Made by a program: the position numbers and the translations under genes. From the IMG/VR virus record IMGVR_UViG_3300047160_003350, positions 1-21,710 of that record: 21,710 bases of DNA; one strand, written 5' to 3'. A model generated the notes under the pieces. It saw only the letters and a list, made by a program, of their open reading frames with translations, had not been told where the DNA came from and ran no database searches. Below, piece by piece: positions 1 through 21,710 of the stretch (the stretch's first letter is position 1; every line of letters starts with the position of its first letter). This DNA comes from a virus.

Positions 1-97
1 TCGGCGACCTCGACGTGGGCGACCCCGTCGTCGGTCCGCCACGCCGCGACAACCGCGGCGTCGGAGCGGTCGACGGCGACGTCGAAGCCGAGAGCGA
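1..97. repeat. Terminal direct repeat, copy 1 (identical to 21614..21710)
   Basis: Read directly: tcggcgacctcgacgtgggcgaccccgtcg...gtcgaagccgagagcga is present at both window ends, 97/97 identical. It lies inside one continuous minus-strand reading frame (terL), so it behaves as a circularisation overlap. Confidence 0.95.
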
Positions 98-935
98 CCG
101 TGCCGGGGCCGGGAAGCTCGGCCGGTTTCTCGGCCGCGGCGCGCCACTGCTCGAGGGGGATAACCCGGGCCTGGGCGTTCACCCACCGGTTCCCGTAGGC
201 CCGGGCGAAACCGTCGGGTCCCATCTGGTCGAGGGCGGCGACCATGGCCTCTTCGCCGATGGTGCGGCCGTAGGCGGGATGGTAAACCGGCCACGACCCC
301 GGATGGCAAGGGTCGAGCTCGGGCGGGCAGGACCACTCGAAGTAGCACATCCCCGAGTCGCGGCCCTCGGCGACGGCGGCCCGCCCGGCCTCGGTCGTGC
401 CGAGCCACCATGTCGACCGGTCCGTCCCGGCGGTCGACACTTTCCAAACCTGGGCGTTCGGTTTCGTCGCCTGGGTCGGCACGATGGCCTGATCGATCGC
501 CTCGCCGGCGATCAGATCGAATTTCCAGCACTCGTCGACCACGACCATGTCCGACGTTTTGGAGTGCAGCCCGGACTCGTTGGGCGGGAACGGCCGGATC
601 AGCCCGGCCGACCTGCGCCATTTCACGTGTTCGGACCCGGCCATGCGGCGCAACGCCACCTCCGCCCCGAAACCGGACAAAAGTGGCCAGAACTCGTTGG
701 TCAGCCAATCGACCGCGTCTTTCGCCGACTGCATGGTGAACCACACCCGGCCGCGAGGCACGACCAGCGCCCGATGGTTCATCGCCGCCCCGTCGAGCGT
801 CGTCTTACCCGACTGGCGGGGGACGGTCACCAAAACGGTCTTGTAGGCGAAACGGCCGTCGTCGAGGACCTCCAGGGCGACGTCGGCAACGTACGCCTGC
901 CATGGCATGAACGGCCGGCCCATCGCCTTGGCCAC
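1..935 (-). CDS. terL: Terminase large subunit, N-terminal ATPase part (gene continues at 21613 down to 21211)
   Basis: The minus frame is open to the window edge, so it is missing from the ORF track. Own translation from GTG 935 (alternative ATG 923): ..AKAMGRPFMPWQAYVADVALEVLDDGRFAYKTVLVTVPRQSGKTTLDGAAMNH.. Walker A PRQSGKTT is at 798-821. ..SDMVVVDECWKF.. gives Walker B at 525-545. The frame continues ..PGTVALGFDVAVDRSD.. across the junction. Total about 446 aa if GTG 935 is the start. The start codon is uncertain. Confidence 0.9.
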   Translation of the reverse strand, partial: MAKAMGRPFMPWQAYVADVALEVLDDGRFAYKTVLVTVPRQSGKTTLDGAAMNHRALVVPRGRVWFTMQSAKDAVDWLTNEFWPLLSGFGAEVALRRMAGSEHVKWRRSAGLIRPFPPNESGLHSKTSDMVVVDECWKFDLIAGEAIDQAIVPTQATKPNAQVWKVSTAGTDRSTWWLGTTEAGRAAVAEGRDSGMCYFEWSCPPELDPCHPGSWPVYHPAYGRTIGEEAMVAALDQMGPDGFARAYGNRWVNAQARVIPLEQWRAAAEKPAELPGPGTVALGFDVAVDRSDAAVVAAWRTDDGVAHVEVA

Positions 936-966
936 CTGGGCGACCGCCCCGCCGTATGTCAGACGG

Positions 967-1278
967 TCAGGGCGGCGTGGGGTCGCTACCGCCGGTCCCG
1001 GCCCCCATGAGTCCGGCCATGAAAGCGTCGAACCCGTCGACCGGTTTCGTTTGGCCTCCGACCGTGAGGCCCGCAGCCTGGCGGAGGTCGAGGTAGGCGA
1101 CATTCGCCCGGCTCACCTGGTCCGGGTCGGCGCGGGCCTCGGCCACGTCGACCGCCCGGGCCTGGGCCCGCAGCGCGGCCCGCTCGGCTGGTGATACCTC
1201 ACGATGGTCGAGCAGGTCCGCCTCGAGGGCCCGCTCGACTCGGCCTCTTTTGTCCTCCGGTCGCTTGCGTTCACTCAC
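967..1278 (-). CDS. terS: Putative terminase small subunit (103 aa)
   Basis: GTG start at 1278, sitting between the HNH gene and terL. Charged helical N-terminus and Gly-rich tail. Assigned by position and size only. Confidence 0.5.
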   Translation of the reverse strand: MSERKRPEDKRGRVERALEADLLDHREVSPAERAALRAQARAVDVAEARADPDQVSRANVAYLDLRQAAGLTVGGQTKPVDGFDAFMAGLMGAGTGGSDPTPP

Positions 1279-1320
1279 AATCCCGCCCGGATCCGGTCAA
1301 ACCCCGGCCTGGCCGGTTCG

Positions 1321-1436
1321 ATTCGAAAGAAAATGAAAGAGCGCTCGGGGTGCGAGGACCGACCCGCCGGAAAAAACCGGGGTTGATTTTTTTTTTTCAA
1401 AACTTTTCAAAACTTTTTTTGGGTTTTCTTTCACTT
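1321..1436. promoter_or_regulatory. AT-rich, phased T-tract block; candidate cos/pac recognition or late regulatory region
   Basis: T11 run at 1387-1397. Tandem CAAAACTTTT at 1398-1407 and 1408-1417. T7 run at 1414-1420, then TTTT/TTT tracts at roughly 10-nt spacing. CCGG-A6-CCGG at 1367-1380. Palindrome GAGCGCTC at 1340-1347. Strong compositional outlier in a GC-rich genome, lying between HNH and terS. Confidence 0.5.
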
Positions 1437-1721
1437 TCAGAACCTGGTGACGTAGTCGGCGACCCCCGTGTGATACTGCCATCTGCGCGCGTTACCCACG
1501 TCGCCGCCTGCCCGACTGTTGCACCTGTGGCACGCCGCCCGCAGGTTGGCGGGATCCCAACAGTTCCCGCCGTCCGCCCGGGCCATGATGTGATCGACAG
1601 TGGTCGCCACACCCAGACACCCGGCCAGTCGCATCTGGCACCGGTGACCGTCACGGTCCAACACCCACAACCTCAGCGCACGCCACTGCCGTGTCGCTAG
1701 CCGCCTGTCATGGCTAGTCAT
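1437..1721 (-). CDS. HNH endonuclease (94 aa)
   Basis: DGHRCQMRLAGC...VDHIMARADGGNCWDPANLRAACHRCNS carries the H-N-H and Cys-pair motifs. Typical position next to the terminase genes in HK97-like cos phages. Confidence 0.9.
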   Translation of the reverse strand: MTSHDRRLATRQWRALRLWVLDRDGHRCQMRLAGCLGVATTVDHIMARADGGNCWDPANLRAACHRCNSRAGGDVGNARRWQYHTGVADYVTRF

Positions 1722-1774
1722 CGGTGATCCCGCATCTCGAGATCCCTAGTGCCGTACTTATCCGGGCTAGCCAT
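1718..1774 (-). CDS. 18-codon upstream ORF (MASPDKYGTRDLEMRDHR) coupled to the HNH start by an ATGA overlap
   Basis: ATG at 1774-1772 is preceded by AGGA with a 6-nt spacer. TGA at 1720-1718 overlaps the HNH ATG (1721-1719). Carries copy A of the conserved start box. Confidence 0.35.
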   Translation of the reverse strand: MASPDKYGTRDLEMRDHR

Positions 1775-1786
1775 TAGCCATCCTGT

Positions 1787-1823
1787 GGTCCCATTGGGAC
1801 CACTTATGTGGTACAATGGGACC
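1787..1823 (+). promoter_or_regulatory. Promoter and operator of the plus-strand cassette
   Basis: Extended -10 TGgTACAAT at 1809-1817, then 7 nt to ATG 1825, which predicts a leaderless mRNA. Perfect palindrome GGTCCCA-T-TGGGACC at 1787-1801 over the -35 region. A third half-site TGGGACC at 1817-1823 abuts the -10. Confidence 0.6.
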
Positions 1824-1824
1824 A

Positions 1825-1986
1825 ATGATTACGGTAGAGCTTGAGCGAGTCGAAGGCCTGGAAATGCTGGCAATGGTCCTAGCCCATCTGAACGTGGCCG
1901 AGGCCAGGGCCGACCTATCTCCCCGGGTGCCGATGCTCATGGCGATTCGCGACAAGCTCGCCCTTGCCCTTCGGGAGGAGCCATGA
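1825..1986 (+). CDS. Hypothetical helical protein (53 aa)
   Basis: Own translation: MITVELERVEGLEMLAMVLAHLNVAEARADLSPRVPMLMAIRDKLALALREEP*. ATGA overlap with the next gene (1983-1986). Too short to appear in the ORF track. Third-position GC is somewhat lower than in neighbouring genes. Confidence 0.55.
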   Translation: MITVELERVEGLEMLAMVLAHLNVAEARADLSPRVPMLMAIRDKLALALREEP

Positions 1987-2225
1987 GCTACAACGAGGCC
2001 GACATCGCGGTGGCGTCCGCGGCGATGGAGAAGCATCGGATCGCGGACGGCGAAGTCGGCGCAGCCCTGGTCGTGGTGGGCTTGAGCGCGGACCGGGTGG
2101 AGAAGGAGGCCGCCATTCGGGATGACATGATCCGGATCGCTCATCGCAGCGGCGCCTCTCTGCGCCAGCTGGCCGAGGTGTCGGGATTGAACCGCAAGAC
2201 CATCACCACGATCGTCAATTCCTGA
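1983..2225 (+). CDS. Small DNA-binding protein with C-terminal helix-turn-helix (80 aa)
   Basis: ORF track. ASLRQLAEVSGLNRKTITTIV is a resolvase/sigma-region-4-like HTH. High third-position GC in this frame. Confidence 0.7.
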   Translation: MSYNEADIAVASAAMEKHRIADGEVGAALVVVGLSADRVEKEAAIRDDMIRIAHRSGASLRQLAEVSGLNRKTITTIVNS

Positions 2226-2256
2226 TAGATGTGGTCCGGTGGCCAGGTGCCCGGCA

Positions 2257-2478
2257 TCACACCGCCCCCGAACTGCCGTTATGGGATGCACTGTGCTGAC
2301 GCTTCGCTTCCCTGGCCTCATCGGGGTCGCCGTAGAGGTTTACCGTGCCGTGCTGGGAGCATTCGACTCCCCACAACTGTTGGTAGCCGTCGTTCGAGGC
2401 GACGTGCCAGATCGTGATAACGGCCCCAGAGTCGGCGTTAGGGGATTCCTGATAAGTGGGCTTATCAGGACTAGACAT
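2257..2478 (-). CDS. Hypothetical protein (73 aa)
   Basis: ORF track. ATG 2478 overlaps the methyltransferase stop by 8 nt (ATGTCTAG). Carries copy B of the start box. Confidence 0.6.
   Translation of the reverse strand: MSSPDKPTYQESPNADSGAVITIWHVASNDGYQQLWGVECSQHGTVNLYGDPDEAREAKRQHSASHNGSSGAV
2447..2470. repeat. Perfect inverted repeat TCCTGATAAG-TGGG-CTTATCAGGA
   Basis: 10-bp arms at 2447-2456 and 2461-2470 with a 4-nt loop. Begins one base after the C5-MTase stop codon and covers codons 3-10 of the 73-aa ORF. Confidence 0.9.
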
Positions 2479-3172
2479 CGGCCAACGCCCCGATCAACTG
2501 GCGGCCGATCCATTCCGTGTAGGCGGGCGGGATCGCTTCACGCAGCTCGTCCCAGGTCATCCAGTCAATGCCCATCGCTTCGGCGCCTTCGGCGAGCGAG
2601 CGGGCAGCCCGTTGGGTGGTGCGGGAGTTGAGTCGACGACCGTCTGGCTTGTTGCCATATACGCCGATCCTGTCGATACCGCGGCAGCCGCGGCCTGGCG
2701 ACAAGATGAGCGTGTTCGACTCGAACAGGCGCGGTCGGTGGACGCCAAGCCCGAACATGGCGCCGGCCAGGATCAGGGTTGCTTCCATTTTCCATACCGC
2801 GCCGACGACGTTCTCGAGCACCCACGGAACCCCGATGTTCCCCAATCGCTCACGCGTCGGGCCGATCAGGTCGGGGTGATTGTCAGCGGCGCCACCTTTC
2901 CCGCGCCAACGGTTGCTGGTCTGCGTATAGGCCTGGCATGGCGGGCTGGCGTGGATCGCATCGAACGGGATGCCTTCACCATCAGTCAGGTAGGTGTCCA
3001 GTAGCGCCAGGGCGTCGAGTTGGAAGAACTCGTCGCCGCAGTAGTTCGGTTGCGGGTCGATGTCGACGCCGACCACGTAGAACCCGGCGCGCTGGTACCC
3101 CTTCGCGGCGCCGCCGGCCCCGCAGAACATGTCAAGCAGTCGCGGATAATGGGCCTTATCGGGACTAGCCAT
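2471..3172 (-). CDS. DNA (cytosine-5) methyltransferase, compact form (233 aa)
   Basis: Motif I LDMFCGAGG, motif IV ASPPCQ, motif VI WVLENV, motif VIII HRPRLF, C-terminal AIPPAYTEWIG. The variable/target-recognition segment is very short. Confidence 0.9.
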   Translation of the reverse strand: MASPDKAHYPRLLDMFCGAGGAAKGYQRAGFYVVGVDIDPQPNYCGDEFFQLDALALLDTYLTDGEGIPFDAIHASPPCQAYTQTSNRWRGKGGAADNHPDLIGPTRERLGNIGVPWVLENVVGAVWKMEATLILAGAMFGLGVHRPRLFESNTLILSPGRGCRGIDRIGVYGNKPDGRRLNSRTTQRAARSLAEGAEAMGIDWMTWDELREAIPPAYTEWIGRQLIGALADV

Positions 3173-3326
3173 AGTCGCCTCGCTCGAAGTGCCAGTCGTC
3201 GTGTTCGTCGCGGGCGTCCTGGCCGGCCGCGATGAGGCCGCACACCTGGCAGCGGTAGCACACCTCGCCGTAGGGCACGGTGTGGCCCACGATGTCGAAT
3301 CGCTGATAACCGGGGTTATGCGTCAT
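3165..3326 (-). CDS. Small zinc-ribbon-like protein (53 aa)
   Basis: Own translation: MTHNPGYQRFDIVGHTVPYGEVCYRCQVCGLIAAGQDARDEHDDWHFERGDYG*. ATGA overlap with the upstream gene (3323-3326). Its TAG lies inside the methyltransferase start box. Confidence 0.55.
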   Translation of the reverse strand: MTHNPGYQRFDIVGHTVPYGEVCYRCQVCGLIAAGQDARDEHDDWHFERGDYG

Positions 3327-3775
3327 ATCCGCTCACCATCCAGCCAGTCGAACAGCTGCACCTCGTCAGCGATGGTGGCGCTGCCCCATCTGCCGTTTAC
3401 CACGATCTGCGGGCCGGCCAGTCGTGTCGCGCGGCGGCCCGATGTTGCGGCGTCGATCGGTCCTCGCATCACATACAGGCCGCTTCGCGGGTGTATCCGC
3501 ATGGTGCAGTCGATGTAGTGGGCGATGATGTCGTCAAGCAAGCGGTGGACCTCGGTTTGTGCGAACTTGGCGGCCTGGGTCGGTTGTTTGTGTTCGATGA
3601 AACGCAGCAGCCGCAACGATCTTTTGTAGCTGACGCCGTCGATGTCGCCGTAGGTGAAGGTTCGTTTCATGCGGTGGATGATCTGCCCGAGCGCGGACGC
3701 CGATTCGTACAGGTTGCGGTGGTCGCGGTGAATGAGCTCTTCGTCACAGTCGGGACAGAACGTGCGCCGGCACAT
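3323..3775 (-). CDS. Hypothetical protein, possible PD-(D/E)XK nuclease with N-terminal Cys cluster (150 aa)
   Basis: ORF track. CRRTFCPDCDE at the N-terminus. YGDIDGV...(about 16 aa)...FIEHK fits a D...ExK spacing. The motif-level guess is not verified. Confidence 0.4.
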   Translation of the reverse strand: MCRRTFCPDCDEELIHRDHRNLYESASALGQIIHRMKRTFTYGDIDGVSYKRSLRLLRFIEHKQPTQAAKFAQTEVHRLLDDIIAHYIDCTMRIHPRSGLYVMRGPIDAATSGRRATRLAGPQIVVNGRWGSATIADEVQLFDWLDGERI

Positions 3776-4791
3776 CAGAGATCGGCTCCGATGAACCGAC
3801 GACCGAACCGCAGCGCCGCCAGTCCTATGCTGCCCGATCCGGCGAACGGGTCCACGATCAGATCGCCGGGCGACGTCAACGCCGAAATGATGGGCTCAAG
3901 CTCGGCGACACCTTGCGCCCAGTCGTCGGTGTCACCGGTCGGGAGCGTCTTGCGGGGCGCGCTCCCGTCGATCCGGTCGGCGAGCATGAACCGGCCGCGC
4001 CGGTTGCCCCGCACAAACCACAGCAACGGTTTCCACCCGGCCGACACCCACTTACCGGGGATCATGGCCGTGCCGTGCTGGTGCAATAGGGCGATAGTCC
4101 ACCAGTAGCGCAGATGCTCGCCGAGCCGCTCGAGCGCATCGGGCAAGATCGACTGCCCGCAATAGGCGACCAGCGACCCGCCCGGTACCAGCCAGTCAGC
4201 TGACATCTTCGCCAGGTCGGACCATAGCGGCAGATACTCGGTCGGATAGGGCGGGTCGGTGAGCACCAGGGCGACCGACCCGGGCTCGACGTCGAGCACC
4301 TCTCGGAAATCGCCGTCGACTATCTCGACCTCGTCCGCGTCGACGTCAACCGCGTTGGCCTGGTCGACCGCCAGCAGCAGCGACCGCCGCGACCGCATTC
4401 CCTCGCGCACCAAACCGACCAGGAAATCTCGATAGCCGTAATACCGGCGGAACTCTTCGACCCGCTGAACGGGTATGAAAAGATCCGCGCGCGGATCTTT
4501 TTTGCCCCGTCCTGGGCCGGCACCGGGATTCGGACCGAGTCGCTGGCCGAGCTCGATCTCCACGAACATCTGCGCCGACTTGATTTCATTTTTCTCCTGG
4601 CCGTGACCATTCCACTTCTGGGCGAGCGCAGCGCATGTTGTGGCGGTATCCCAAAGGATCGCGGGGTCATCGACGTCAGGGCAACGCGCGAGCACCACCT
4701 CTGCGAACCCGGCGGGCACCATGCCCGGGCCTAGATCGGCGCGGACTAGTTGCCCATGCTCATCTTCCAGATAATCGGGATTCTCTGTCAT
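3775..4791 (-). CDS. DNA N6-adenine/N4-cytosine methyltransferase, beta-class order (338 aa)
   Basis: Start taken at ATG 4791 (MTENPDYLED), which has an ATGA overlap with the upstream gene. TDPPY (motif IV) precedes VDPFAGSGS (motif I). The longer 417-aa track ORF is a read-through of the neighbouring gene's alternative frame. Confidence 0.85.
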   Translation of the reverse strand: MTENPDYLEDEHGQLVRADLGPGMVPAGFAEVVLARCPDVDDPAILWDTATTCAALAQKWNGHGQEKNEIKSAQMFVEIELGQRLGPNPGAGPGRGKKDPRADLFIPVQRVEEFRRYYGYRDFLVGLVREGMRSRRSLLLAVDQANAVDVDADEVEIVDGDFREVLDVEPGSVALVLTDPPYPTEYLPLWSDLAKMSADWLVPGGSLVAYCGQSILPDALERLGEHLRYWWTIALLHQHGTAMIPGKWVSAGWKPLLWFVRGNRRGRFMLADRIDGSAPRKTLPTGDTDDWAQGVAELEPIISALTSPGDLIVDPFAGSGSIGLAALRFGRRFIGADL

Positions 4792-5396
4792 GCGTAGTCC
4801 TCGGGGCCTCTTAGTCGCCGCCGTGCTCGTTCGACCCAAAGCTGCATGTAGTCGGCGCGGGCGGGCCGGTCGGTTTCGGTGCTGTGGTCGGCGGGCCAGG
4901 TGCGGGCGAAGTCCCGGCGGCGTTGGCGCCACAGGTTGCGCCATTCGGGGTTGACGCAGCGGCACGGTTCGACGGTGTTGGCCCGGTCGGGCAGTTCGAC
5001 CCAGCCGGAACCTTCGCAAACCCGGCATTCGGGATCTACATCGCGGGTCGGGGGTTTGGGGTTATACCCCGATTTTCCTGCGGGGATCACAGGGGGATCG
5101 GGTTCGCGCTCGCACGCCCTCGCTCCTTGCGTCGCGTCCGAGCGTAATCCCTCTGTCAAGTCCCCCCCGGACTCTGTCACGTGCGTGAGAACGCGCACGG
5201 TAGCGGCACTCCAGCGTGTCGCCTTGTGAATGATGATTATCCGGCCGGAGCGCTCGAGCCGGCGTTGACTGTCGCTGATAGAGCGTTCGGACACGTCGAG
5301 TTCGCCGGCCTGGTCGCGAAGAGACATGATGACGGTGCCGTCGTGGTCGGCATGTCCGACGTACATGCGGTATAGGCGATCATCGAACGCGGTCAT
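4788..5396 (-). CDS. Winged-helix/HTH DNA-binding protein with CxxCxGxG zinc motif (202 aa); possible replication initiator or regulator
   Basis: SLRDQAGELDVSERSISDSQRRLERSGRIII is wHTH-like. ECRVCEGSGWVE...CRC is a Cys cluster. Confidence 0.55.
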   Translation of the reverse strand: MTAFDDRLYRMYVGHADHDGTVIMSLRDQAGELDVSERSISDSQRRLERSGRIIIIHKATRWSAATVRVLTHVTESGGDLTEGLRSDATQGARACEREPDPPVIPAGKSGYNPKPPTRDVDPECRVCEGSGWVELPDRANTVEPCRCVNPEWRNLWRQRRRDFARTWPADHSTETDRPARADYMQLWVERARRRLRGPEDYA

Positions 5397-5403
5397 GACT
5401 CGG

Positions 5404-5709
5404 TCATCGCAGGGTTCTTTCGATTTCGGCCCAGTCGGCCGGGCGCCACACGAACACCTCGAGCCCGGCGCAGCGGCCGAGCAGGTCGAGCCAGCGGTCC
5501 TGATCCGGGCTGGTTTTCCCCCGGTCGGATTTGATTTCGGCCAGCACGAGGCGGGGTGGGCGGCATATGGCCAGATCGGGCCAGCCGCGCGGCGAGCGGA
5601 TGGACAGCCACGGGTGGTAGACAGCCCAGCCGCGCAGGTGGGCGTAGTCGACGACCTGGGCCATGAACTGTTTCTCGGTTATCGATGGCAGCACCCGGGG
5701 GGCGGTCAT
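5404..5709 (-). CDS. VRR-NUC domain nuclease (101 aa)
   Basis: Start at ATG 5709 (ATGA overlap). EKQFMAQVVDYAHLRGWAVYH...GWPDLAI...VLAEIKSDRGKTSPDQDRW matches the VRR-NUC PD-ExK pattern. Confidence 0.8.
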   Translation of the reverse strand: MTAPRVLPSITEKQFMAQVVDYAHLRGWAVYHPWLSIRSPRGWPDLAICRPPRLVLAEIKSDRGKTSPDQDRWLDLLGRCAGLEVFVWRPADWAEIERTLR

Positions 5710-6239
5710 GCCAGGCGGGCCGCCACCCGGGCGGCGTCGGCCGCATGTCGGATGTCGTGCCCCGAGGGGGCCAGGCGCTGCTGGTCGATCTGACGGACCA
5801 GCCATTGCACCGCCTGCCACGCCCGGCGCCGGTCGACGCCGCGCAGTAGGGCCTCGTCGATCTCGTCGGCGGCGAGGGTGAGCCACGGCCACGGCTGCCA
5901 CGACGCCAGGCAGCGATATCCGGTGCCGTCGGCGACTTCGCCGGTTTCGTCGTCGACCCGGCCGAGGGTGACGATCTCGAGGCAGATCCCGCCCAGCGGT
6001 GAGCTGTCGATGTCGAAGCGGCGGGTGGTGGAGTACAGCTCCCAGCCTGGGCCGGCGTCGGCGAGACGGTAGTGGCGGGCGGGGTCGGAATCGTAGAGCG
6101 GTCGGTCGCCGTCCCAGATTTGGCGAAGCCGGGCCTTGCGGGCGGCGATGGCGGCCTCGGCCTCGGGGGTGTTCACCTGCAGTGTCCGACCCGAACGGAC
6201 CGCACTACCGCCACGGGTTCCCCTTTCAGAGACAGCCAA
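5706..6239 (-). CDS. Hypothetical protein (up to 177 aa)
   Basis: ORF track, coding-like composition. Start is ambiguous (TTG 6239 or GTG 6176). Confidence 0.5.
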   Translation of the reverse strand: MAVSERGTRGGSAVRSGRTLQVNTPEAEAAIAARKARLRQIWDGDRPLYDSDPARHYRLADAGPGWELYSTTRRFDIDSSPLGGICLEIVTLGRVDDETGEVADGTGYRCLASWQPWPWLTLAADEIDEALLRGVDRRRAWQAVQWLVRQIDQQRLAPSGHDIRHAADAARVAARLA

Positions 6240-6288
6240 GGGTCCGCTTCCCCGCGGGCCCTTCCCGTGTAGTGGACCGCAGGAGAAC

Positions 6289-7104
6289 TCATCCGACCTC
6301 CCCGGTGTCGGGATCGGCCGGCCGGGACGACGGGTGGCGGGCTACCGCCTCGTCGATCAGCCGCGACAGCAGTTCGCCGTGGGCGACGGTGGCGCGCGGC
6401 CCTTTGATGTTCGGGATACCCAGGTTTTTGGCCTGTTCGGCCACCTCCGCCCGGGTCTGCTCGTCGAGGTTGTCGACCACGGCGAGGAGATAGGACCGCT
6501 GCTCGGCGGAGATCTCGTCCTCCCGGGCGTACTCGGGGATGGTGGCGCCGCCGGGGGTGAGCGAACGGGGTTCCGGGCCGGAAGCCGGGGATGGTGACGA
6601 TATGGTGTCTCCCGGCCCGGAGATCGATTCGACCTCGGTCTCGTCGAGCCAGCCGAGCCCGCAGATCGACAGGGTGGCCCGCCGTTTCGCTTTGGTCTCG
6701 GCTTTCATCAAGGCGTTGGCCAGGTTCTCGCCTTTGAGCCCGGCGATCGACACCACCCCGGTGGACTCCTCGGAGCGGCCGTCGGGCAGCGACGCCTGGG
6801 CGGTGACGATGTAAATGCCGATCTGCTCGTGCATGTCCCGGGCCGAGATCCGGGTGGACACGTGGTCGCGGCGGCGCAGCTGGTCGGCGGCGTCCTTGCG
6901 GGCGTACAGGGTGAGCTTGCCTGACAGTTTGATGTACTCGAACGGTTTGGTCAGGGGGTTGACGCCTAGCGATTGGCAGACGGCGTTGTAGTAAGCGAGG
7001 CGCTGCTCGGCGCTCAGGTTGGCCAGGTCGCCGTCGACCACGACCTGCTCGAGGGTGGCGGCGTCGATGACCTGGGCGGGGGCGACGTGCTCGAGGTCGG
7101 TCAC
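6289..7104 (-). CDS. recT: RecT-family single-strand annealing recombinase (271 aa)
   Basis: LSAEQRLAYYNAVCQSLGVNPLTKPFEYIKL..LTLYARKDAADQL...ALMKAETKAKRRATLSICGLG is the RecT signature region. GTGA overlap with the upstream gene. Confidence 0.85.
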   Translation of the reverse strand: MTDLEHVAPAQVIDAATLEQVVVDGDLANLSAEQRLAYYNAVCQSLGVNPLTKPFEYIKLSGKLTLYARKDAADQLRRRDHVSTRISARDMHEQIGIYIVTAQASLPDGRSEESTGVVSIAGLKGENLANALMKAETKAKRRATLSICGLGWLDETEVESISGPGDTISSPSPASGPEPRSLTPGGATIPEYAREDEISAEQRSYLLAVVDNLDEQTRAEVAEQAKNLGIPNIKGPRATVAHGELLSRLIDEAVARHPSSRPADPDTGEVG

Positions 7105-7286
7105 GACGCTGCGGGGGCCTTGTCGGGGTCGAGCAGGGCGTCGATGTCGCTGCGGCGGAATCGGACCTGGCCCGACGGTAGTCGTATGTGGCGGATTTTC
7201 CCGGCGTCGGCCCAGCGGCGGACGGTTTCGTCGCTGACTTCGAGCATGGCCCCGACTTCGGCGGCGCTGAGCAGTTCAGATGGCAT
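7101..7286 (-). CDS. Excisionase/MerR-type HTH protein, first gene of the leftward operon (Cro- or Xis-like, 61 aa from ATG 7286; GTG 7292 also possible)
   Basis: LLSAAEVGAMLEVSDETVRRWADAGKIRHIRLPSGQVRFRRSDIDALL. ATG 7286 lies 6 nt after a TAATAT -10 element. Confidence 0.75.
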   Translation of the reverse strand: MPSELLSAAEVGAMLEVSDETVRRWADAGKIRHIRLPSGQVRFRRSDIDALLDPDKAPAAS

Positions 7287-7292
7287 GTCCAC

Positions 7293-7322
7293 ATATTATT
7301 GGGTATTCCAATTGTTTGCCAA
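7293..7322 (-). promoter_or_regulatory. Leftward early promoter
   Basis: On the minus strand: TTGGCA (7322-7317), 18-nt spacer, TAATAT (7298-7293), 6 nt, ATG 7286. This predicts a leaderless transcript. Confidence 0.6.
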
Positions 7323-7331
7323 TAACCCTAC

Positions 7332-7365
7332 TTATCCACAAGCACTTGTGGATAGTGTGGATAAT
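7332..7365. promoter_or_regulatory. Operator-like repeats identical to DnaA-box consensus, overlapping a rightward -10 (GATAAT 7360-7365)
   Basis: TTATCCACA at 7332-7340, TGTGGATAG at 7348-7356, TGTGGATAA at 7356-7364. Palindrome TATCCACAAG-CA-CTTGTGGATA at 7333-7354. Confidence 0.7.
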
Positions 7366-7375
7366 GTGCTAGGGT

Positions 7376-7657
7376 GTGGGAATGATGGATGGGGATGTGG
7401 GGCGTCGCCCAGCCGATACGTTCGGGGCGCGCCTCGCCGTGATGCGCCAGGCCATGGGCGGCTGGAACGTGAAGAAAGTCGCCGACCACTGCGGGATCAA
7501 CGACCAGGTGTGGCGGAACTGGGAGGCAGGAATCCGGCCGCGCGACTACGTGGAGGTGTGCCGGCTCATCGCCGAACGCCTCGATTTCGAGTTCGAATGG
7601 GTGGCTTTGGGCGGCCCGCTGGACCCGGCATCAACCGGATGGTTGATCGCGGCATGA
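7376..7657 (+). CDS. XRE-family HTH protein, probable immunity repressor (93 aa; start GTG 7376 or ATG 7382/7385)
   Basis: FGARLAVMRQAMGGWNVKKVADHCGINDQVWRNWEAG is an XRE-type HTH. Divergent from the Cro/Xis-like gene. C-terminus is ...STGWLIAA. Confidence 0.75.
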   Translation: MGMMDGDVGRRPADTFGARLAVMRQAMGGWNVKKVADHCGINDQVWRNWEAGIRPRDYVEVCRLIAERLDFEFEWVALGGPLDPASTGWLIAA

Positions 7658-7830
7658 TCGTTATCAAGATCGACGACACCCGCACCGGGGCCAAAGGCCG
7701 GATCGTCACCTACCCGCGCGGCCGCATCACATGGATCTGCCAGGAATGCGACGACAGCGACGACCTGGCCCGGGGTTGGGGTGAAGCCGTTGACGCATTT
7801 TTGGCCCACTACGAGACCGAGCACAGCTAG
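7654..7830 (+). CDS. Hypothetical protein (58 aa)
   Basis: ATGA overlap with the repressor stop (7654-7657). MIVIKIDDTRTGAKGRIVTYPRGRITWICQECDDSDDLARGWGEAVDAFLAHYETEHS. Confidence 0.55.
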   Translation: MIVIKIDDTRTGAKGRIVTYPRGRITWICQECDDSDDLARGWGEAVDAFLAHYETEHS

Positions 7831-7870
7831 GAACCACCGGGCGGGCGGTGACCGACCGGGAGGTTGACTC

Positions 7871-8701
7871 ATGCTGCTCGAAGATGCCATCACCGCCTAC
7901 GTGACCGACCGGGCCGCCCGGGGCGAGCTGACCGCCGGCTCGGCCTACCAGATCGGGTGGCGGCTGCGAACCCTGGCCCACTGCCACCCGGGTTTGCCGG
8001 TCGGGGACCTGTCGGCCGGGCATGTGGCGGACTGGCAGCGCCGAACCGGCGGCCAGTCGCCGGCGGCGCGCCGCTACTACCTGTCGAGCCTGCGGGTGTT
8101 CTGCCGGTGGGCCGCGGCCGCCGGTCTGCTCGATGCGGATCCGACGGCCGGTACCGCCCGGGTGCGCGAACCGAGAGCGGTGCCGCGCGCCCTGTCGCCG
8201 GGCCGGGTGGCCCGCCTGGTCATGGTGCTGCCCGACGACCGGGCCCGCCTGATCGTCGGGCTGATGCACCAGGCCGGATTGCGGTGCGTGGAGGTGTCCC
8301 GCCTGACGGCGGCCGACTGGGACAGCTCGGCCGCGGTGCTGCGGGTGGTGGGCAAAGCCGGCCACGTCCGCGAGCTGCCGGTGCTCGATGATCTGGCCGC
8401 CATGCTCAACCGGCGCGCCGCCGGCCGCAGCGGCCGGCTGGTCGGCCTGTCACCGGCCCGGATATCGGTGCTGGTGTCACGCTGGCTCGACGCCGCCGGG
8501 TTGAAGACCGCGGCCTACGACGGGATCTCCGCCCACGCCCTCAGGCATTCGGCGGCGTCGGACCTGCTCGACGGGTGCGGCGACGTCCGCCTGGTCCAGG
8601 AGTTCCTGGGGCATGTGTCGCTGGCCACCACGGAGCGGTATTTGCGGCGCCGGTCTACCGCCGAGATCCGCGCCGCCATGCTCAAATCGCGGTCGGCCTA
8701 G
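7871..8701 (+). CDS. int: Tyrosine recombinase/integrase, short XerC/D-like (276 aa)
   Basis: GGGAGG at 7858-7863 upstream of the ATG. GLRCVEVSRL (Arg), HALRHS (H-x-x-R) and LGHVSLATTERYL (His...Tyr) are the catalytic motifs. There is no long N-terminal arm-binding domain. Confidence 0.9.
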   Translation: MLLEDAITAYVTDRAARGELTAGSAYQIGWRLRTLAHCHPGLPVGDLSAGHVADWQRRTGGQSPAARRYYLSSLRVFCRWAAAAGLLDADPTAGTARVREPRAVPRALSPGRVARLVMVLPDDRARLIVGLMHQAGLRCVEVSRLTAADWDSSAAVLRVVGKAGHVRELPVLDDLAAMLNRRAAGRSGRLVGLSPARISVLVSRWLDAAGLKTAAYDGISAHALRHSAASDLLDGCGDVRLVQEFLGHVSLATTERYLRRRSTAEIRAAMLKSRSA

Positions 8702-8808
8702 GAGAGCATCAGGTACGCCAGGTAGGCGATTTCGAGGGCGGCGAGCACGCCGGCGGCTACCACCACGAACACGCCCAGCATCCACAGCCGGGCCCGGCGG
8801 TCGCCCAC
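8698..8808 (-). CDS. Small single-pass membrane protein (36 aa from GTG 8808; 27 aa from ATG 8781)
   Basis: Own translation: VGDRRARLWMLGVFVVVAAGVLAALEIAYLAYLMLS*. Very high third-position GC. The GTG directly follows the holin TAG in the same frame. Its stop shares the CTAG at 8698-8701 with the integrase stop. Confidence 0.5.
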   Translation of the reverse strand: MGDRRARLWMLGVFVVVAAGVLAALEIAYLAYLMLS

Positions 8809-8997
8809 CTACGATTTCCGGTCACCGTTGCTCGTGGTGGGCAGGGACACGATGACCACGGCGATACCTCCGACCAGGCCGATGACGGCCAGGAGGTCGG
8901 TGTCCAAATCGCGGTTGCGGATGAGCACGATGAGCGACAGGGTGAGCACGGCCACGCCGAGCAGGATGAGCAGGGCGTCGCGTTTGGCCAGGCTCAC
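8809..8997 (-). CDS. Holin-like protein, two transmembrane helices (62 aa)
   Basis: GTGA overlap with the endolysin stop. VSLAKRDALLILLGVAVLTLSLIVLIRNRDLDTDLLAVIGLVGGIAVVIVSLPTTSNGDRKS. Confidence 0.65.
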   Translation of the reverse strand: MSLAKRDALLILLGVAVLTLSLIVLIRNRDLDTDLLAVIGLVGGIAVVIVSLPTTSNGDRKS

Positions 8998-9809
8998 GTG
9001 ATGGGCGCGGTCCACGCCGCGGCCCACGTGTCGGGTCCGACGATGCCGTCGACGGTCAGGTGTTTCTCGGTTTGGAACTCGACGCAGATGTCTTGGGATT
9101 CGGGGCCGTACACGCCGTCGACGACCAGGGTCCAGCCCCGGAAGTGCATCTGTTCCTGCCATTGGGCGACGTCGGGGCCGGACATGAGCGGCGGGTACTC
9201 GAGGTAGCGGCCCGGCCATGGCGGCGCCGGGCTGGTGGCGGGTGGCGGCGGCGTCGGGCCAGGAGGTGGCGTAGACGTTCCGGCGCCGCCGCCGGCCATG
9301 GCCAGCACGTCGGCCATGGGGAAACCGGGGCCGCAGTCGACGTGACCGCCCCCCCAGCTGCCCAGATCGACGTGCTGGCACACCCCCCGCCCCGAGCCTT
9401 GGGCCTGGGCGGGACTGAGAGCGACGATCGGGATACCGAACGCGGCGGCTTCCTCGGCGACCCAGGCGGCCAGGTTGGCCATCATCACCGTCTGGGCCAG
9501 CCAGGTGTAGCGCGACCAGGCGGCGGACGCCCCCGGCGGGGTGCAGCACTCGGCCTGCACCGCTACCGGGTTGGCCCCCGCCGCCGTCCACGCTTTGCCC
9601 GAACGGGCAACGTATTCGCCGATGACACCGGGGCTGGCGTTGTCGATGCCGACATGCGAGCTCACCCCGCTCGAGGGGTTGGCGAAGAAGTTCCCGAGGG
9701 ACTGGTAGGTCTGGGCGCCTTCGCTGGAGTGGATGACGATCAGCCTGACGGTCGCCGCGCCGCGCGTCGAGTAGTTCGGGCTCGGAATGCGGACCCGGTT
9801 AAGAGTCAT
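8994..9809 (-). CDS. Endolysin: N-acetylmuramoyl-L-alanine amidase (Amidase_2/PGRP-like) with C-terminal peptidoglycan-binding domain (271 aa)
   Basis: Start at ATG 9809 (MTLNRVRIPSPNYSTRG...VIHSSEG...SSHVGID...AWTAAGANPVAVQAE). Pro-rich linker. C-terminal SGPDVAQWQEQM...VDGVYGPESQDICVEFQ...VDGIVGPDTW is PG_binding_1-like. Confidence 0.85.
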   Translation of the reverse strand: MTLNRVRIPSPNYSTRGAATVRLIVIHSSEGAQTYQSLGNFFANPSSGVSSHVGIDNASPGVIGEYVARSGKAWTAAGANPVAVQAECCTPPGASAAWSRYTWLAQTVMMANLAAWVAEEAAAFGIPIVALSPAQAQGSGRGVCQHVDLGSWGGGHVDCGPGFPMADVLAMAGGGAGTSTPPPGPTPPPPATSPAPPWPGRYLEYPPLMSGPDVAQWQEQMHFRGWTLVVDGVYGPESQDICVEFQTEKHLTVDGIVGPDTWAAAWTAPIT

Positions 9810-21210: not shown

Positions 21211-21710
21211 TCAGTAGATCCTGAAATCGCCGAGGGCGGGGCCGCGGTGATCGTAACCCCACACTGCGACAGTCATGGCGGTCAGGGCGGCGAGCGACCC
21301 GGCTGACTGGCGCCGGCCCCACGCCCACGCGTCCCCCAAAGGACGCCGGGCGGCGGACGCGGCGGCGGCGTCAAGGTTGGGGTGTGGCCGGTACCTGAGG
21401 GCGGGCGGGTCGGCGCAGACGGCGTCGAGGACGCGGGCGCACGCCGCGGCGTATTCGCGCGCTTGTAGGCCGGCGAGGGCGATCCCGGCCCGCTCCAGCT
21501 GGTCGGCGATGTCCAAAGCGGGACCGGCTTTGTCGTAGGCGACCACCACAGGCTGCCAGCGCGCCGCCAGGTCGGCGATCCGCTCGGCGAGCCACCCGAC
21601 ACCGGGCCGGGCGTCGGCGACCTCGACGTGGGCGACCCCGTCGTCGGTCCGCCACGCCGCGACAACCGCGGCGTCGGAGCGGTCGACGGCGACGTCGAAG
21701 CCGAGAGCGA
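21211..21710 (-). CDS. terL: Terminase large subunit, C-terminal nuclease part (continuation of 1..935)
   Basis: Same frame as 1..935 through the 97-nt overlap. Translation: LGFDVAVDRSDAAVVAAWRTDDGVAHVEVADARPGVGWLAERIADLAARWQPVVVAYDKAGPA...GDFRIY*, an RNaseH-like terminase nuclease pattern. TGA at 21211-21213. Confidence 0.9.
   Translation of the reverse strand, partial: ALGFDVAVDRSDAAVVAAWRTDDGVAHVEVADARPGVGWLAERIADLAARWQPVVVAYDKAGPALDIADQLERAGIALAGLQAREYAAACARVLDAVCADPPALRYRPHPNLDAAAASAARRPLGDAWAWGRRQSAGSLAALTAMTVAVWGYDHRGPALGDFRIY
21614..21710. repeat. Terminal direct repeat, copy 2 (identical to 1..97)
   Basis: Same 97-nt string as the window start. Confidence 0.95.

What the first reader, a model, noticed from the sequence alone, without database searches (positions are those of the whole stretch)
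1755..3172. Conserved box ATGnCTAGyCCnGATAAG embedded in three (plus one partial) minus-strand start sites
Plus-strand copies are 1755-1774 TACTTATCCGGGCTAGCCAT, 2459-2478 GGCTTATCAGGACTAGACAT and 3153-3172 GCCTTATCGGGACTAGCCAT. 15 of 18 core positions are invariant and all three copies share one orientation.

On the coding strand each reads ATG-(G/T)CT-AG(T/C)-CCN-GAT-AAG. This gives N-termini M-(A/S)-S-P-D-K for three otherwise unrelated ORFs: the C5 methyltransferase, the 73-aa ORF, and an 18-codon ORF that feeds into the HNH gene. In every case the upstream reading frame stops at the TAG inside the box (an 8-nt ATGnCTAG overlap). The HNH start itself is a partial copy (ATGACTAGCC, plus strand 1712-1721).

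Two of the three variable positions are codon wobble positions. So either the peptide MxSPDK is conserved, or a nucleic-acid site tolerant at those positions is. CTAG is normally scarce in high-GC genomes.

Possible roles:
- a termination-reinitiation coupling cassette;
- a binding site for a phage regulator, similar in logic to the start-associated sequences and stoperators of mycobacteriophages;
- a conserved nascent N-terminal peptide;
- a recombination linker for module shuffling.

I do not recognise this sequence as a described element.
Basis: seen in the sequence. Interest (0 to 1): 0.72.

Follow-up and report, generated by a model that had tools for sequence, protein, structure and literature searches.

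The report
Portable gene-junction box in soil actinophages
A roughly 30-base sequence that carries one gene's stop codon, the next gene's first nine codons and a short palindrome sits in front of dozens of unrelated accessory genes in a group of uncultured soil phages, and it marks the points where gene cassettes, mainly DNA methyltransferases, have been swapped.

Summary
The three boxes are real: 3 exact matches against 0.07 expected.

They are the 5' half of a ~30-nt element: (start)-N-CTAG-TCC-N-GATAAG, then GCCCA-TTATC (type A) or CCCAC-TTATC (type B).

The element recurs, almost unchanged, in about 35 high-GC soil viral and metagenome contigs. Their shared genes are only about 55-77% identical to the window's at protein level.

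It heads 46 ORFs:
- 37 of at least 40 aa fall into 28 unrelated families, including four kinds of DNA methyltransferase.
- 9 are orphans of only 10-31 codons.

Conservation is at the nucleotide level. Rare codons (AGT, GAT, CAT/ACT, TAT) are fixed. Types A and B differ by a 1-nt register shift.

Close homologues of the window's methyltransferase lack the box, so it is a graft.

In four pairwise comparisons homology starts or stops inside the box. Every multi-box locus reads A, then cassette, then B.

Best reading: a portable junction element that acts as the homology patch for cassette exchange. It resembles T4-type PeSL cassettes but lies inside coding sequence.

Not excluded: a tyrosine-recombinase core site (11-6-11 layout) or a regulator's operator. 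A conserved peptide is rejected. The HNH "partial copy" is not a copy.

Molecular function is untested.

The parts
3143..3172 (-). Type A junction box. ATG 3172-3170. TAG, the stop of the 53-aa gene, at 3167-3165. Left arm AGTCCCGATAA 3166-3156. Centre GGCCCA 3155-3150. Right arm TTATCCG 3149-3143. Encodes MASPDKAHYP of the C5 methyltransferase.
   Evidence: The same element sits in front of unrelated genes in L025, L030, L033, L038, L039, L042-L044 and L047-L051.
2447..2478 (-). Type B junction box. ATG 2478-2476. TAG, the stop of the methyltransferase, at 2473-2471. Perfect 10-bp palindrome TCCTGATAAG (2470-2461) / CTTATCAGGA (2456-2447) with loop CCCA (2460-2457). Encodes MSSPDKPTYQ of the 73-aa ORF.
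   Evidence: The RNA fold is -13.9 kcal/mol with z = -2.85.
1757..1774 (-). Half box: start plus left arm only (ATGGCTAGCCCGGATAAG). There is no centre and no right arm.
   Evidence: No hairpin forms (z = +1.3). The upstream frame is not coding.
1718..1774 (-). 18-codon orphan ORF (MASPDKYGTRDLEMRDHR) started by the half box. Its TGA overlaps the HNH start as ATGA.
   Evidence: Comparable orphans of 10-31 codons follow boxes in L035, L039, L040, L044, L092, L142, L150 and L158.
2471..3172 (-). Cassette gene in the A...B slot: a short C5 DNA methyltransferase with the box grafted in front of its native PRLLD...FCGAGG N-terminus.
   Evidence: Only 1 of its 120 closest homologues carries SPDK; the usual start is M(K/R)PRLLDLFCGAGG.
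2257..2478 (-). 73-aa ORF led by the type B box. It has no homologue among the relatives.
3165..3326 (-). 53-aa zinc-ribbon-like gene. Its stop codon is the TAG of the type A box.
   Evidence: GC3 0.93; the frame ends at the box TAG.
1437..1721 (-). HNH endonuclease. It forms the right-hand border of the cassette region, and its start is not a box copy.
2217..2232 (-). Possible relic of a box right half: CCACATCTATCAGGAA (2232-2217), compared with copy 2's CCCACTTATCAGGAAT. It lies at the other end of the inverted plus-strand module.
   Evidence: Read. It rests on a 10-nt exact match, TATCAGGAAT (2226-2217), and is tentative.
1775..2256 (+). Oppositely oriented two-gene module (56 aa and 80 aa) with operator-like palindromes. 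It interrupts the minus-strand operon between the 73-aa gene and the half box.
   Evidence: Relatives L034, L036 and L044 lack it.

Best explanation
The box is the 5' part of a ~30-bp portable gene-junction element.

**What the sequence shows directly**
- Read on the coding strand, the element supplies the stop for the upstream gene. TAG is backed by an in-frame TAA inside GATAA.
- It supplies the first 9-10 codons of the downstream gene (x-S-P-D-K-(AH|PT)-Y).
- It contains a short imperfect palindrome, GATAA(G)-N4-6-(C)TTATC.

**What the comparisons show**
- It sits at the borders of accessory-gene cassettes in one hyperplastic region. That region lies between the early genes and the HNH-terminase genes of a clade of small temperate high-GC phages.
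- Homology between relatives begins or ends inside it.

**What is inferred**
- The element is kept identical at the DNA level while everything around it diverges. It therefore offers an 18-30-bp patch of identity at which co-infecting phages or prophages exchange, insert or delete cassettes by short-homology recombination.
- A type A box opens the slot and a type B box closes it. A double crossover then replaces the gene in between, usually a DNA methyltransferase, while keeping the stop, start and reading frame intact.
- Any ORF that lands behind a box is immediately translatable and coupled to its neighbour. That advantage, perhaps together with an unidentified factor that reads the sequence, is what maintains the box.

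Homologous rather than site-specific recombination is an inference. The expression role is an inference.
For: 1. **Not chance.** Three exact copies against 0.07 expected.
2. **Same element in relatives.** It recurs in about 35 high-GC contigs from IMG/VR and soil metagenomes. These share TerL, HNH and portal with the window at 54-77% protein identity and about 70% nucleotide identity. The box itself matches at 94-100% over 27-35 nt.
3. **Many unrelated genes.** It heads 46 ORFs. The 37 of at least 40 aa form 28 unrelated clusters once the box residues are masked. Nine are orphans of 10-31 codons. Cassette genes include canonical and short C5 methyltransferases, an N6_N4 methyltransferase, ADPPY-type methyltransferases, a Vut_1-like membrane protein and an HTH_17 protein.
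4. **Nucleotide-level constraint.**
   - A codon-blind search for S[PT]D[KN]..Y over 398 kb gave 52 hits. All use GAT and TAT, and nearly all use AGT.
   - The window's genes use GAT for 14% of Asp, TAT for 17% of Tyr, AGT for 4% of Ser, ACT for 3% of Thr and CAT for 17% of His.
   - The base before AGT is T whatever the preceding residue is.
   - Types A and B share CCCA in different reading registers.
5. **The box is a graft.** Of the 120 closest methyltransferase homologues, 119 lack it and start M(K/R)PRLLDLFCGAGG.
6. **Breakpoints fall in the box.**
   - L025/L034: the upstream methyltransferases are unrelated, and identity is 95-97% from GTCTAG to the end of the 82-aa cassette.
   - L040/L043 and L037/L044: about 90% identical upstream as far as GATAAG, then unrelated.
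   - L039/L048: same flanks and the same variant B box, but C5 versus ADPPY methyltransferase.
7. **Fixed order.** All 9 loci with at least two boxes read A then B along transcription, with different contents between.
8. **Box-free relative.** L053 (TerL 77%) has neither the box nor methyltransferase cassettes. It has a plain ATGGGTAG overlap at the corresponding junction.
9. **Stop codon use.** In 33 of 54 copies the best upstream coding frame ends at the box TAG.
Against: - No experiment shows recombination at the box. All evidence is comparative and comes from metagenome assemblies, which could in principle mis-join at a shared 30-mer. This is unlikely with large k-mers and with many independent samples, but it is not excluded.
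- Retrieval used nucleotide patterns, so conservation of the pattern positions is partly built in. This is mitigated by second copies in the same loci, by the codon-blind search and by TerL-based retrieval.
- The contigs are not independent. The A-then-B order may be inherited synteny.
- The right border of the L025/L034 cassette is an ordinary (A/G)TGA overlap without a box. Exchange therefore does not need a box on both sides.
- No recombinase that acts on short homology was identified. The 271-aa protein at 6292-7104 matched nothing in Pfam, PHROGs, NCBIfam or PDB sequences.
- Recombination alone does not explain why the sequence resists synonymous drift. The maintaining function is unknown.
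Confidence: 0.55

Rival explanations
1. The box is the core site of a tyrosine (Xer-like) recombinase: two 11-nt arms (AGTCCNGATAA and TTATCNGG...) around a 6-nt centre. The two centre types, GGCCCA (A) and GCCCAC (B), act as heterospecific spacers. Cassettes are then exchanged site-specifically (A with A, B with B) without being deleted, a natural analogue of recombinase-mediated cassette exchange.
For: - The layout is 11-6-11 with the inner palindrome ATAA-N6-TTAT. One arm is much better conserved than the other, and there are two clusters of centre sequence. dif and pdif sites are described in just these terms (PMC6449649).
- XerC arms such as GAGTCGGATAA and TCTGATAA occur in published dif sites (PMC2731167).
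- The window encodes a 276-aa Xer-like recombinase without an arm-binding domain. Homologues occur in L046, L048 and L068.
- The A-then-B order holds in 9 of 9 loci.
- In L025/L034 the variable base N differs while everything to its right is near-identical. That fits a crossover to the right of N.
Against: - The right arm TTATCNGG does not match the XerD-arm consensus TTATGTNAANT.
- All boxes are direct repeats, whereas pdif modules are bounded by inversely oriented sites (titles and abstracts).
- No box-like site lies next to the integrase gene.
- Half boxes and orphan arms exist, such as window copy 1 and L046 +11846. Site-specific exchange does not produce these.
- L037 looks like an A-flank joined to a B box to the left of N, outside the centre. 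This is weak, because N is a wobble base.
- L033 and L035 share the right arm and the next 10 nt but differ in centre type.
- The site is embedded in frame in coding sequence. This is unusual for recombinase core sites.
Confidence: 0.12
2. The primary function is regulatory. The element would be an operator read by a phage or host factor. That factor could act on DNA as a dimeric binding site (GATAA-N6-TTATC) or an asymmetric CTAGTCCNGATAA site. It could instead act on mRNA as a translational operator or coupling hairpin at codons 2-10, placing the accessory genes under common control. Recombination at the box would then be a by-product.
For: - Phase relative to the start codon is strict, and the orientation is always sense.
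- Sequence conservation goes beyond coding needs.
- Type B copies fold into stable hairpins, with z from -1.7 to -5.1.
- A few variants keep the palindrome through paired changes: GATAAC...GTTATC in L092 and L032, and GATAAT...ATTATC in L086.
- The upstream stop lies 5 nt after the start, so terminating ribosomes must open the stem (read from the sequence).
- Precedents for conserved start-linked motifs of unknown function exist in actinophages (SAS/ESAS, PMC3203893).
Against: - Type A copies have only a weak 5-bp stem, no better than shuffles (z from -0.2 to +1.0).
- The flanking N/N' pair does not covary: about 10 of 27 are Watson-Crick (read).
- Several variants break the sixth stem pair.
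- There are only 1-3 copies per genome, all in one small region. That is few for a regulon.
- No candidate binding protein is shared by all box-bearing contigs.
- No promoter-like or terminator-like signal lies at the boxes, and there is no Rfam match.
- A close relative (L053) does without the box.
Confidence: 0.25
3. The conserved object is the N-terminal peptide M-x-S-P-D-K-(AH/PT)-Y, for example a tag, a degron or a nascent-chain signal. The DNA similarity would merely follow from it.
For: S-P-D-(K/N)-x-x-Y is kept in all copies and is always read in the same frame from a start codon 1-2 codons upstream.
Against: - Rare codons are fixed in all 52 hits of a codon-blind search, in genomes that use them 3-17% of the time.
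- The third base of the variable preceding codon is always T.
- AH and PT are unrelated residues, but they arise from one CCCA string shifted by 1 nt.
- Nine boxes are followed by only 10-31 codons.
- Window copy 1 keeps only MASPDK.
- 119 of the 120 closest methyltransferase homologues function without it.
Confidence: 0.03
4. The similarity is trivial: chance, a recent local duplication within this one genome, or an assembly artefact.
For: - The contigs are metagenome assemblies.
- Many come from one set of tropical-soil samples.
Against: - Chance expectation is 0.07.
- The element occurs in contigs from many different samples and two collections, in frame, in front of 28 gene families.
- The sequences flanking the three window copies are unrelated.
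Confidence: 0.03

Closest known systems
PeSL (promoter-early stem-loop) cassettes of T4-type phages (PMC2839356, PMC4122927)
   Same: - A short conserved motif with a stem-loop flanks non-essential ORFs in hyperplastic regions.
- Insertions, deletions and replacements between relatives map to the motifs.
- The motifs are proposed to act as homology for cassette shuffling while also serving expression.
   Different: - PeSLs are intergenic. They consist of a sigma-70-type promoter plus a terminator hairpin and act on transcription.
- This box lies inside the coding sequence, from codon 2 onward. It has no promoter or terminator signature and carries the stop/start overlap instead.
- It occurs 1-3 times per genome, in high-GC siphophage-like genomes of about 20 kb.
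- There is no sequence similarity between the two.
Start-associated sequences (SAS/ESAS) of Cluster K mycobacteriophages (PMC3203893)
   Same: - An actinophage motif tied to gene starts.
- One orientation only.
- Restricted to the non-structural part of the genome.
- Associated with genes of different families.
- Sometimes contains the upstream gene's stop codon.
- Function unknown.
   Different: - The SAS is the 13-bp GGGATAGGAGCCC, placed 3-7 bp upstream of the start in the ribosome-binding-site position. It contains the Shine-Dalgarno core and occurs many times per genome.
- This box starts after the start codon, is translated, has a different sequence, and marks mosaic breakpoints.
Stoperators of Cluster A mycobacteriophages (PMC9283540, PMC6550527)
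   Same: - Short sites in one orientation relative to transcription.
- Often located at gene junctions.
   Different: [quoted passage not shown]
- This element has 3 copies within 1.4 kb of a 21.7-kb genome, is palindromic, lies in frame in coding sequence, and has no known binding protein.
dif/pdif sites and dif modules of Acinetobacter plasmids (PMC6449649, PMC13141974)
   Same: - The same geometry: 11-nt arms, a 6-nt centre, a conserved inner palindrome ATAA...TTAT, and one arm better conserved than the other.
- Two centre classes.
- The sites bound small accessory-gene modules that shuffle between replicons.
   Different: - pdif arms match the XerC and XerD consensus, and the modules are bounded by inversely oriented sites in non-coding DNA.
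- Here the second arm does not match XerD, all sites are direct repeats and are translated, and no recombinase dependence is known.
Linker or boundary sequences proposed for modular exchange in lambdoid phages (Susskind-Botstein model; recalled from memory, not read here)
   Same: Short conserved sequences at gene boundaries, proposed as homology for exchanging functional modules.
   Different: - Those sequences are intergenic and weakly conserved.
- In actinophages mosaicism has mostly been attributed to illegitimate recombination.
- Here the linker is a defined 30-mer fused in frame to the genes.

Membership tests
PeSL regulatory cassettes (T4-type phages) | Contains a strong sigma-70-like early promoter | tested here: not met
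   No promoter-like site was found in 1200-3500. The box lies inside coding sequence.
PeSL regulatory cassettes (T4-type phages) | Contains a stem-loop that works as a transcription terminator | tested here: not met
   Type B copies form a stable hairpin, but no T-run follows. Type A stems are no better than shuffles.
PeSL regulatory cassettes (T4-type phages) | Flanks non-essential ORFs in hyperplastic regions, and indels or replacements between relatives map to the motif | tested here: met
   Breakpoints fall in the box in 4 of 4 pairs, and the A...B slot holds different genes. The box-free relative L053 lacks the cassettes.
Cluster K start-associated sequences | 13-bp motif GGGATAGGAGCCC located 3-7 bp upstream of the start codon and containing the Shine-Dalgarno core | tested here: not met
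   The box begins after the start codon and its sequence differs (definition).
Cluster A stoperators | Numerous copies distributed across the genome, in one orientation | tested here: not met
   There are only 3 copies in 21.7 kb, all within 1757-3172. Relatives have 1-3 copies.
Cluster A stoperators | Bound by the phage immunity repressor | not testable with these tools
   This needs EMSA or ChIP with the HTH proteins at 7376-7654, 7104-7292 and 1983-2222.
Xer dif/pdif sites | 28-bp layout: 11-nt arm, 6-nt centre, 11-nt arm, with a conserved inner palindrome | tested here: met
   AGTCCNGATAA, then GGCCCA or GCCCAC, then TTATCNGG... Definition from PMC6449649.
Xer dif/pdif sites | Arms match the XerC and XerD binding consensus (XerD arm TTATGTNAANT) | tested here: not met
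   The left arm resembles some XerC arms. The right arm, TTATC-N-GG, does not match the XerD arm (table compared).
Xer dif/pdif sites | Modules are bounded by inversely oriented sites | tested here: not met
   All boxes in every locus are direct repeats on the coding strand.
Xer dif/pdif sites | Recombination depends on XerC/XerD or a Xer-like recombinase | not testable with these tools
   A Xer-like recombinase is encoded at 7871-8698, but nothing links it to the box.
Integron attC sites | 57-141-bp imperfect palindrome with RYYYAAC/GTTRRRY core sites, partnered with an IntI integrase | tested here: not met
   The element is about 30 bp and has no GTTRRRY core. The integrase scores 61.9 bits against the integron-integrase model, whose cutoff is 265.
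REP/BIME elements (recalled from memory) | Extragenic palindromes preceded by GTAG, in many copies, associated with a RAYT transposase | tested here: not met
   The box is intragenic and present in 1-3 copies. No HUH/RAYT-like family appeared among the window proteins scanned. The resemblance (C/G)TAG-NCC-GGATAAG is recalled from memory only.

The most novel reading that the evidence does not exclude
The boxes are core sites of a phage-borne, integron-like cassette system. A Xer-type tyrosine recombinase would exchange in-frame gene cassettes between genomes at two heterospecific sites, centre A and centre B. This would be natural recombinase-mediated cassette exchange, used to swap DNA-methyltransferase specificities.
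Probability: 0.12. Interest if true: 0.9.

Novelty: new variant of a known kind. Interest (0 to 1): 0.66.

Why it matters
- **A long-running question.** Phage mosaicism is usually explained in one of two ways. One is illegitimate recombination followed by selection. The other is homologous recombination at conserved linkers. Clear linkers have been hard to find, especially in actinophages.
- **What this element offers.** It is a sharply defined 30-mer that is translated, carries the stop/start overlap, and sits exactly where cassettes change between relatives. The linker model becomes directly testable: scramble the box synonymously and measure cassette exchange and expression.
- **An arms-race module.** The slot mostly holds DNA methyltransferases of four unrelated kinds. 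The box may therefore be the device by which these phages change their anti-restriction methylation quickly.
- **Gene calling.** Gene callers miss the box start. The source annotation begins the methyltransferase at Met15. N-termini in this phage group are therefore likely mis-annotated.
- **Engineering.** A compact in-frame junction that makes any ORF plug-and-play could be reused for engineering actinophages.

Tried and rejected
- **Megablast of 1-8000 against deposited phages:** no match. The closest cultured relatives are small Rhodococcus and Gordonia phages, at about 40% TerL identity.
- **First 18-mer scan of viral contigs:** most hits were low-GC families with an unrelated MTSPDK start or were chance matches. 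Only the high-GC hits were relevant.
- **Scan of 185,579 species genomes with the 23-nt pattern:** 0 hits. A TerL-based scan found only one distant Kribbella prophage, so the host remains unknown.
- **Box against deposited phages by blastn:** only chance partial matches, E about 4.
- **Rfam on 1-9000:** nothing. No tRNAs. No promoter or terminator signal at the boxes.
- **Covariation in the stem:** not convincing. The N/N' pair is Watson-Crick in about 10 of 27 copies, and the sixth pair is compensated in some variants and broken in others.
- **RecT idea:** I expected the 271-aa protein (6292-7104) to be a RecT-like annealing protein. Pfam, PHROGs, NCBIfam and PDB sequences gave nothing, so this is not claimed.
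- **Box-like attP next to the integrase:** none found.
- **HNH 'partial copy':** rejected after comparing HNH starts in relatives.
- **Restriction-site, methylation-site, readthrough-signal, and cos or pac explanations:** considered and dropped. The sequence around CTAG varies, a second in-frame stop follows within three codons, and the number and position of boxes vary between genomes.
- **My GC3-based gene caller:** too crude. I replaced it with per-box frame analysis.
Full report
**1. The observation**

A search for ATGNCTAGYCCNGATAAG allowing up to 3 mismatches finds three exact minus-strand matches, at 1757-1774, 2461-2478 and 3155-3172. It also finds the 3-mismatch site at the HNH start. 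Only 0.07 matches are expected by chance, and no shuffle reached four.

The ATGs open three ORFs:
- an 18-codon ORF;
- the 73-aa ORF;
- a 233-aa C5 DNA methyltransferase (PF00145, phrog_363).

CTAG is not significantly depleted in the window: 16 observed against 22.8 +/- 4.6 expected.

**2. Genomic setting**

The window is a 68% GC phage genome of about 21.7 kb.
- The large-terminase gene runs off the start of the window and continues at its end (blastn against L030 and L025). The window is therefore a circularly permuted, probably complete genome.
- It is a JGI metagenome contig (P0001, contig length 21710).
- On the minus strand the order is: Xis-like HTH, unknown genes, VRR-NUC, an N6/N4 methyltransferase, small genes, the box region, HNH, small terminase, large terminase, portal, capsid and tail genes.
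- A repressor-like HTH and a Xer-like tyrosine recombinase lie on the plus strand.
- No deposited phage is similar at the DNA level. The nearest cultured relatives are small Rhodococcus and Gordonia phages, at about 40% TerL identity.

**3. The box is half of a longer element, and relatives share it**

Scanning IMG/VR for the 18-mer gave mostly irrelevant low-GC hits. Three high-GC contigs, however, carried two or three copies each, followed by the same extra bases as window copy 3. Further pattern scans of viral and metagenome contigs brought the set to about 35 high-GC contigs.

These contigs are relatives of the window:
- about 70% nucleotide identity in shared genes;
- 54-77% protein identity for TerL, HNH and portal.

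The box region, in contrast, matches at 94-100% over 27-35 nt.

The consensus on the coding strand is:
- a start codon (ATG, GTG or TTG, sometimes one codon further upstream);
- N-CTAG-TCC-N-GATAAG;
- then GCCCA-TTATC (type A, peptide SPDKAHY) or CCCAC-TTATC (type B, SPDKPTY);
- then N-G-G/C.

A sister group has GATAAC or GATAAT (SPDN).

In the window the full elements are 3143-3172 (type A) and 2447-2478 (type B). The type B copy has a perfect 10-bp palindrome. Copy 1 keeps only the start and the left arm.

**4. Nucleic acid, not peptide**

- A codon-blind six-frame search for S[PT]D[KN]..Y over 398 kb of high-GC loci gave 52 hits. Every hit uses GAT and TAT, and almost all use AGT.
- The window's own genes use GAT for 14% of Asp, TAT for 17% of Tyr, AGT for 4% of Ser, ACT for 3% of Thr and CAT for 17% of His.
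- The residue before Ser varies (A, S, T, P, R, N), but its third base is T. TAG is therefore kept while the start codon itself varies.
- Types A and B encode unrelated dipeptides (AH and PT) from the same CCCA string shifted by one base: G added before, C removed after.
- Nine boxes are followed by only 10-31 codons.
- Of the 120 closest homologues of the window's methyltransferase, 119 lack the motif and begin M(K/R)PRLLDLFCGAGG. The window protein reads MASPDKAHY-PRLLDMFCGAGG, so the box is a graft in front of the native N-terminus. The source annotation even starts the gene at Met15.

The conserved-peptide reading is therefore rejected.

**5. What the box is attached to**

The box heads 46 ORFs. 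With the box residues masked, the 37 ORFs of at least 40 aa form 28 unrelated clusters. They include:
- a canonical C5 methyltransferase (PF00145, 1.7e-43);
- the short C5 form found in the window;
- an N6_N4 methyltransferase;
- ADPPY-type methyltransferases;
- a Vut_1-like membrane protein;
- an HTH_17 protein;
- zinc-ribbon proteins;
- a Trp/Arg-rich 60-aa family.

In 33 of 54 copies the best upstream coding frame ends at the box TAG. The TAA inside GATAA lies in that same frame.

Boxes occur 1-3 times per genome, always on the coding strand, in the stretch just upstream of HNH and terminase. The close relative L053 (TerL 77%) has no methyltransferase cassettes and no box. The corresponding junction there is a plain ATGGGTAG overlap.

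**6. Mosaic breakpoints lie in the box**

- L025 and L034 carry unrelated methyltransferases upstream. From GTCTAG onward they are 95-97% identical, up to the stop codon of an 82-aa cassette. After that only the HNH genes match, at 71%.
- L040/L043 and L037/L044 are about 90% identical upstream as far as GATAAG. Beyond that point they switch box type and become unrelated.
- L039 and L048 share the upstream gene and the same variant B box (TAGTAC). Between the boxes, one carries a C5 methyltransferase and the other an ADPPY type.
- In all nine loci with at least two boxes, the order along transcription is type A, then cassette, then type B. The contents differ.

In the window, a two-gene module of opposite orientation (1775-2256) sits between the 73-aa gene and the half box. 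Relatives lack this module. A possible right-half relic lies at its far end (2217-2232). This suggests that the module, too, arrived by an event at a box.

**7. Mechanism**

The supported part is that the element is a portable junction and a recombination joint.

I infer short-homology recombination rather than site-specific exchange, for these reasons:
- half boxes exist;
- one comparison places a crossover to the left of the variable base and another places it to the right;
- L033 and L035 share a right arm but differ in centre type;
- the right border of one recently moved cassette has no box at all.

What keeps the sequence from drifting is unknown. Type B forms a stable hairpin (z down to -5.1), but type A does not. 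Stem covariation is equivocal. No Rfam family, promoter or terminator matches.

The geometry is that described for dif and pdif sites: 11-nt arm, 6-nt centre, 11-nt arm, inner ATAA...TTAT, one arm better conserved, and two centre classes (PMC6449649; PMC2731167). The phage also encodes a Xer-like recombinase. A site-specific system therefore remains a live minority reading. Against it:
- the second arm does not match XerD;
- all sites are direct repeats;
- the sites are translated;
- nothing box-like sits next to the integrase.

**8. Comparison with known elements**

- **PeSL cassettes of T4-type phages** are the closest functional analogue. They are conserved motifs with a stem-loop that flank accessory ORFs and mediate shuffling (PMC2839356). 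PeSLs are intergenic promoter-terminator units, and those defining features are not met here.
- **Cluster K SAS motifs** are start-linked and of unknown function. They lie upstream of the start, in the ribosome-binding-site position, and have a different sequence.
- **Stoperators** are genome-wide repressor sites.

The box is absent from 50,697 deposited phage records and from one genome of each of 185,579 species. I found no description of it.

**9. Caveats**

- All evidence is comparative and comes from metagenome assemblies.
- Many contigs come from related samples.
- Retrieval was partly pattern-based. This is offset by second copies in the same loci, the codon-blind search and the TerL-based retrieval.
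- No recombinase for short homology was identified.

**10. Verdict**

The recombination-linker option is supported. The peptide option is rejected. The regulator, coupling and recombinase-site options remain open.

I rate this a new variant of a known kind (conserved junction cassettes that drive modular shuffling), of fairly high interest.

Noticed in passing
window 1785-1829: A perfect 9-bp palindrome, GTGGTCCCA/TGGGACCAC, is followed 22 nt later by a second CAATGGGACCA copy, directly upstream of the plus-strand 56-aa and 80-aa genes. A TACAAT hexamer lies between the copies. It looks like an operator/promoter for a small, oppositely oriented regulatory module inserted into the minus-strand operon.
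   Followed up: partly
window 1290-1436: A strikingly A/T-rich island with runs of T and a repeated TTTTCAAAAC lies between the HNH stop and the small-terminase start, in a 68% GC genome. It is a candidate cos or packaging region, or a late promoter.
   Followed up: no
window 1-968 and 21211-21710: The large-terminase gene is split across the two ends of the window. Relatives L030 and L025 align across the junction. The window is therefore a circularly permuted, probably complete ~21.7-kb phage genome.
   Followed up: partly
window 2471-3172: The source (JGI) annotation starts the C5 methyltransferase at Met15 (219 aa), skipping the box ATG. This would remove the conserved PRLLD strand, so box-led genes are probably systematically mis-started by gene callers.
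   Followed up: yes
window 1768-1781: A tandem 7-nt duplication, ATGGCTA-ATGGCTAG, lies immediately at the start of copy 1. In addition, ATGGCTAG (1710-1717, plus strand) and CTAGCCAT (1767-1774) form an 8-nt inverted repeat that brackets the 18-codon ORF.
   Followed up: no
window 2217-2232: The minus strand reads CCACATCTATCAGGAA (2232-2217), with T at 2216. This resembles the loop plus right arm of copy 2 (CCCACTTATCAGGAAT). It overlaps the TGA stop of the plus-strand 80-aa gene. It may be a relic of a box half left by insertion or inversion of the module.
   Followed up: partly
L046 11712-11846 (same contig as L008): The first of three closely spaced boxes has one extra base in its centre (GCACCA instead of GCCCA). 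That shifts the frame away from a plausible 46-aa zinc-ribbon ORF. It is either a sequencing error or a real frameshift. Cassettes here are only 134 and 167 nt long.
   Followed up: no
window 6292-7104: A 271-aa early protein sits between the Xis-like HTH and the nuclease genes. It has no match in Pfam, PHROGs, NCBIfam or PDB sequences, although it occupies the position where phages often encode a recombinase.
   Followed up: partly
L068 6840-6872: A variant box has perfect 11-bp arms, TAGTCCTGATA/TATCAGGACTA. In this copy the palindrome extends to include the TAG, which hints that the ancestral element was a longer, 12-6-12 palindrome.
   Followed up: no
window 3775-5028 and 2471-3172: The genome carries two DNA methyltransferases of different classes within 2.5 kb: an N6/N4 type and a C5 type. 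Only the C5 gene sits in the box-flanked slot.
   Followed up: no
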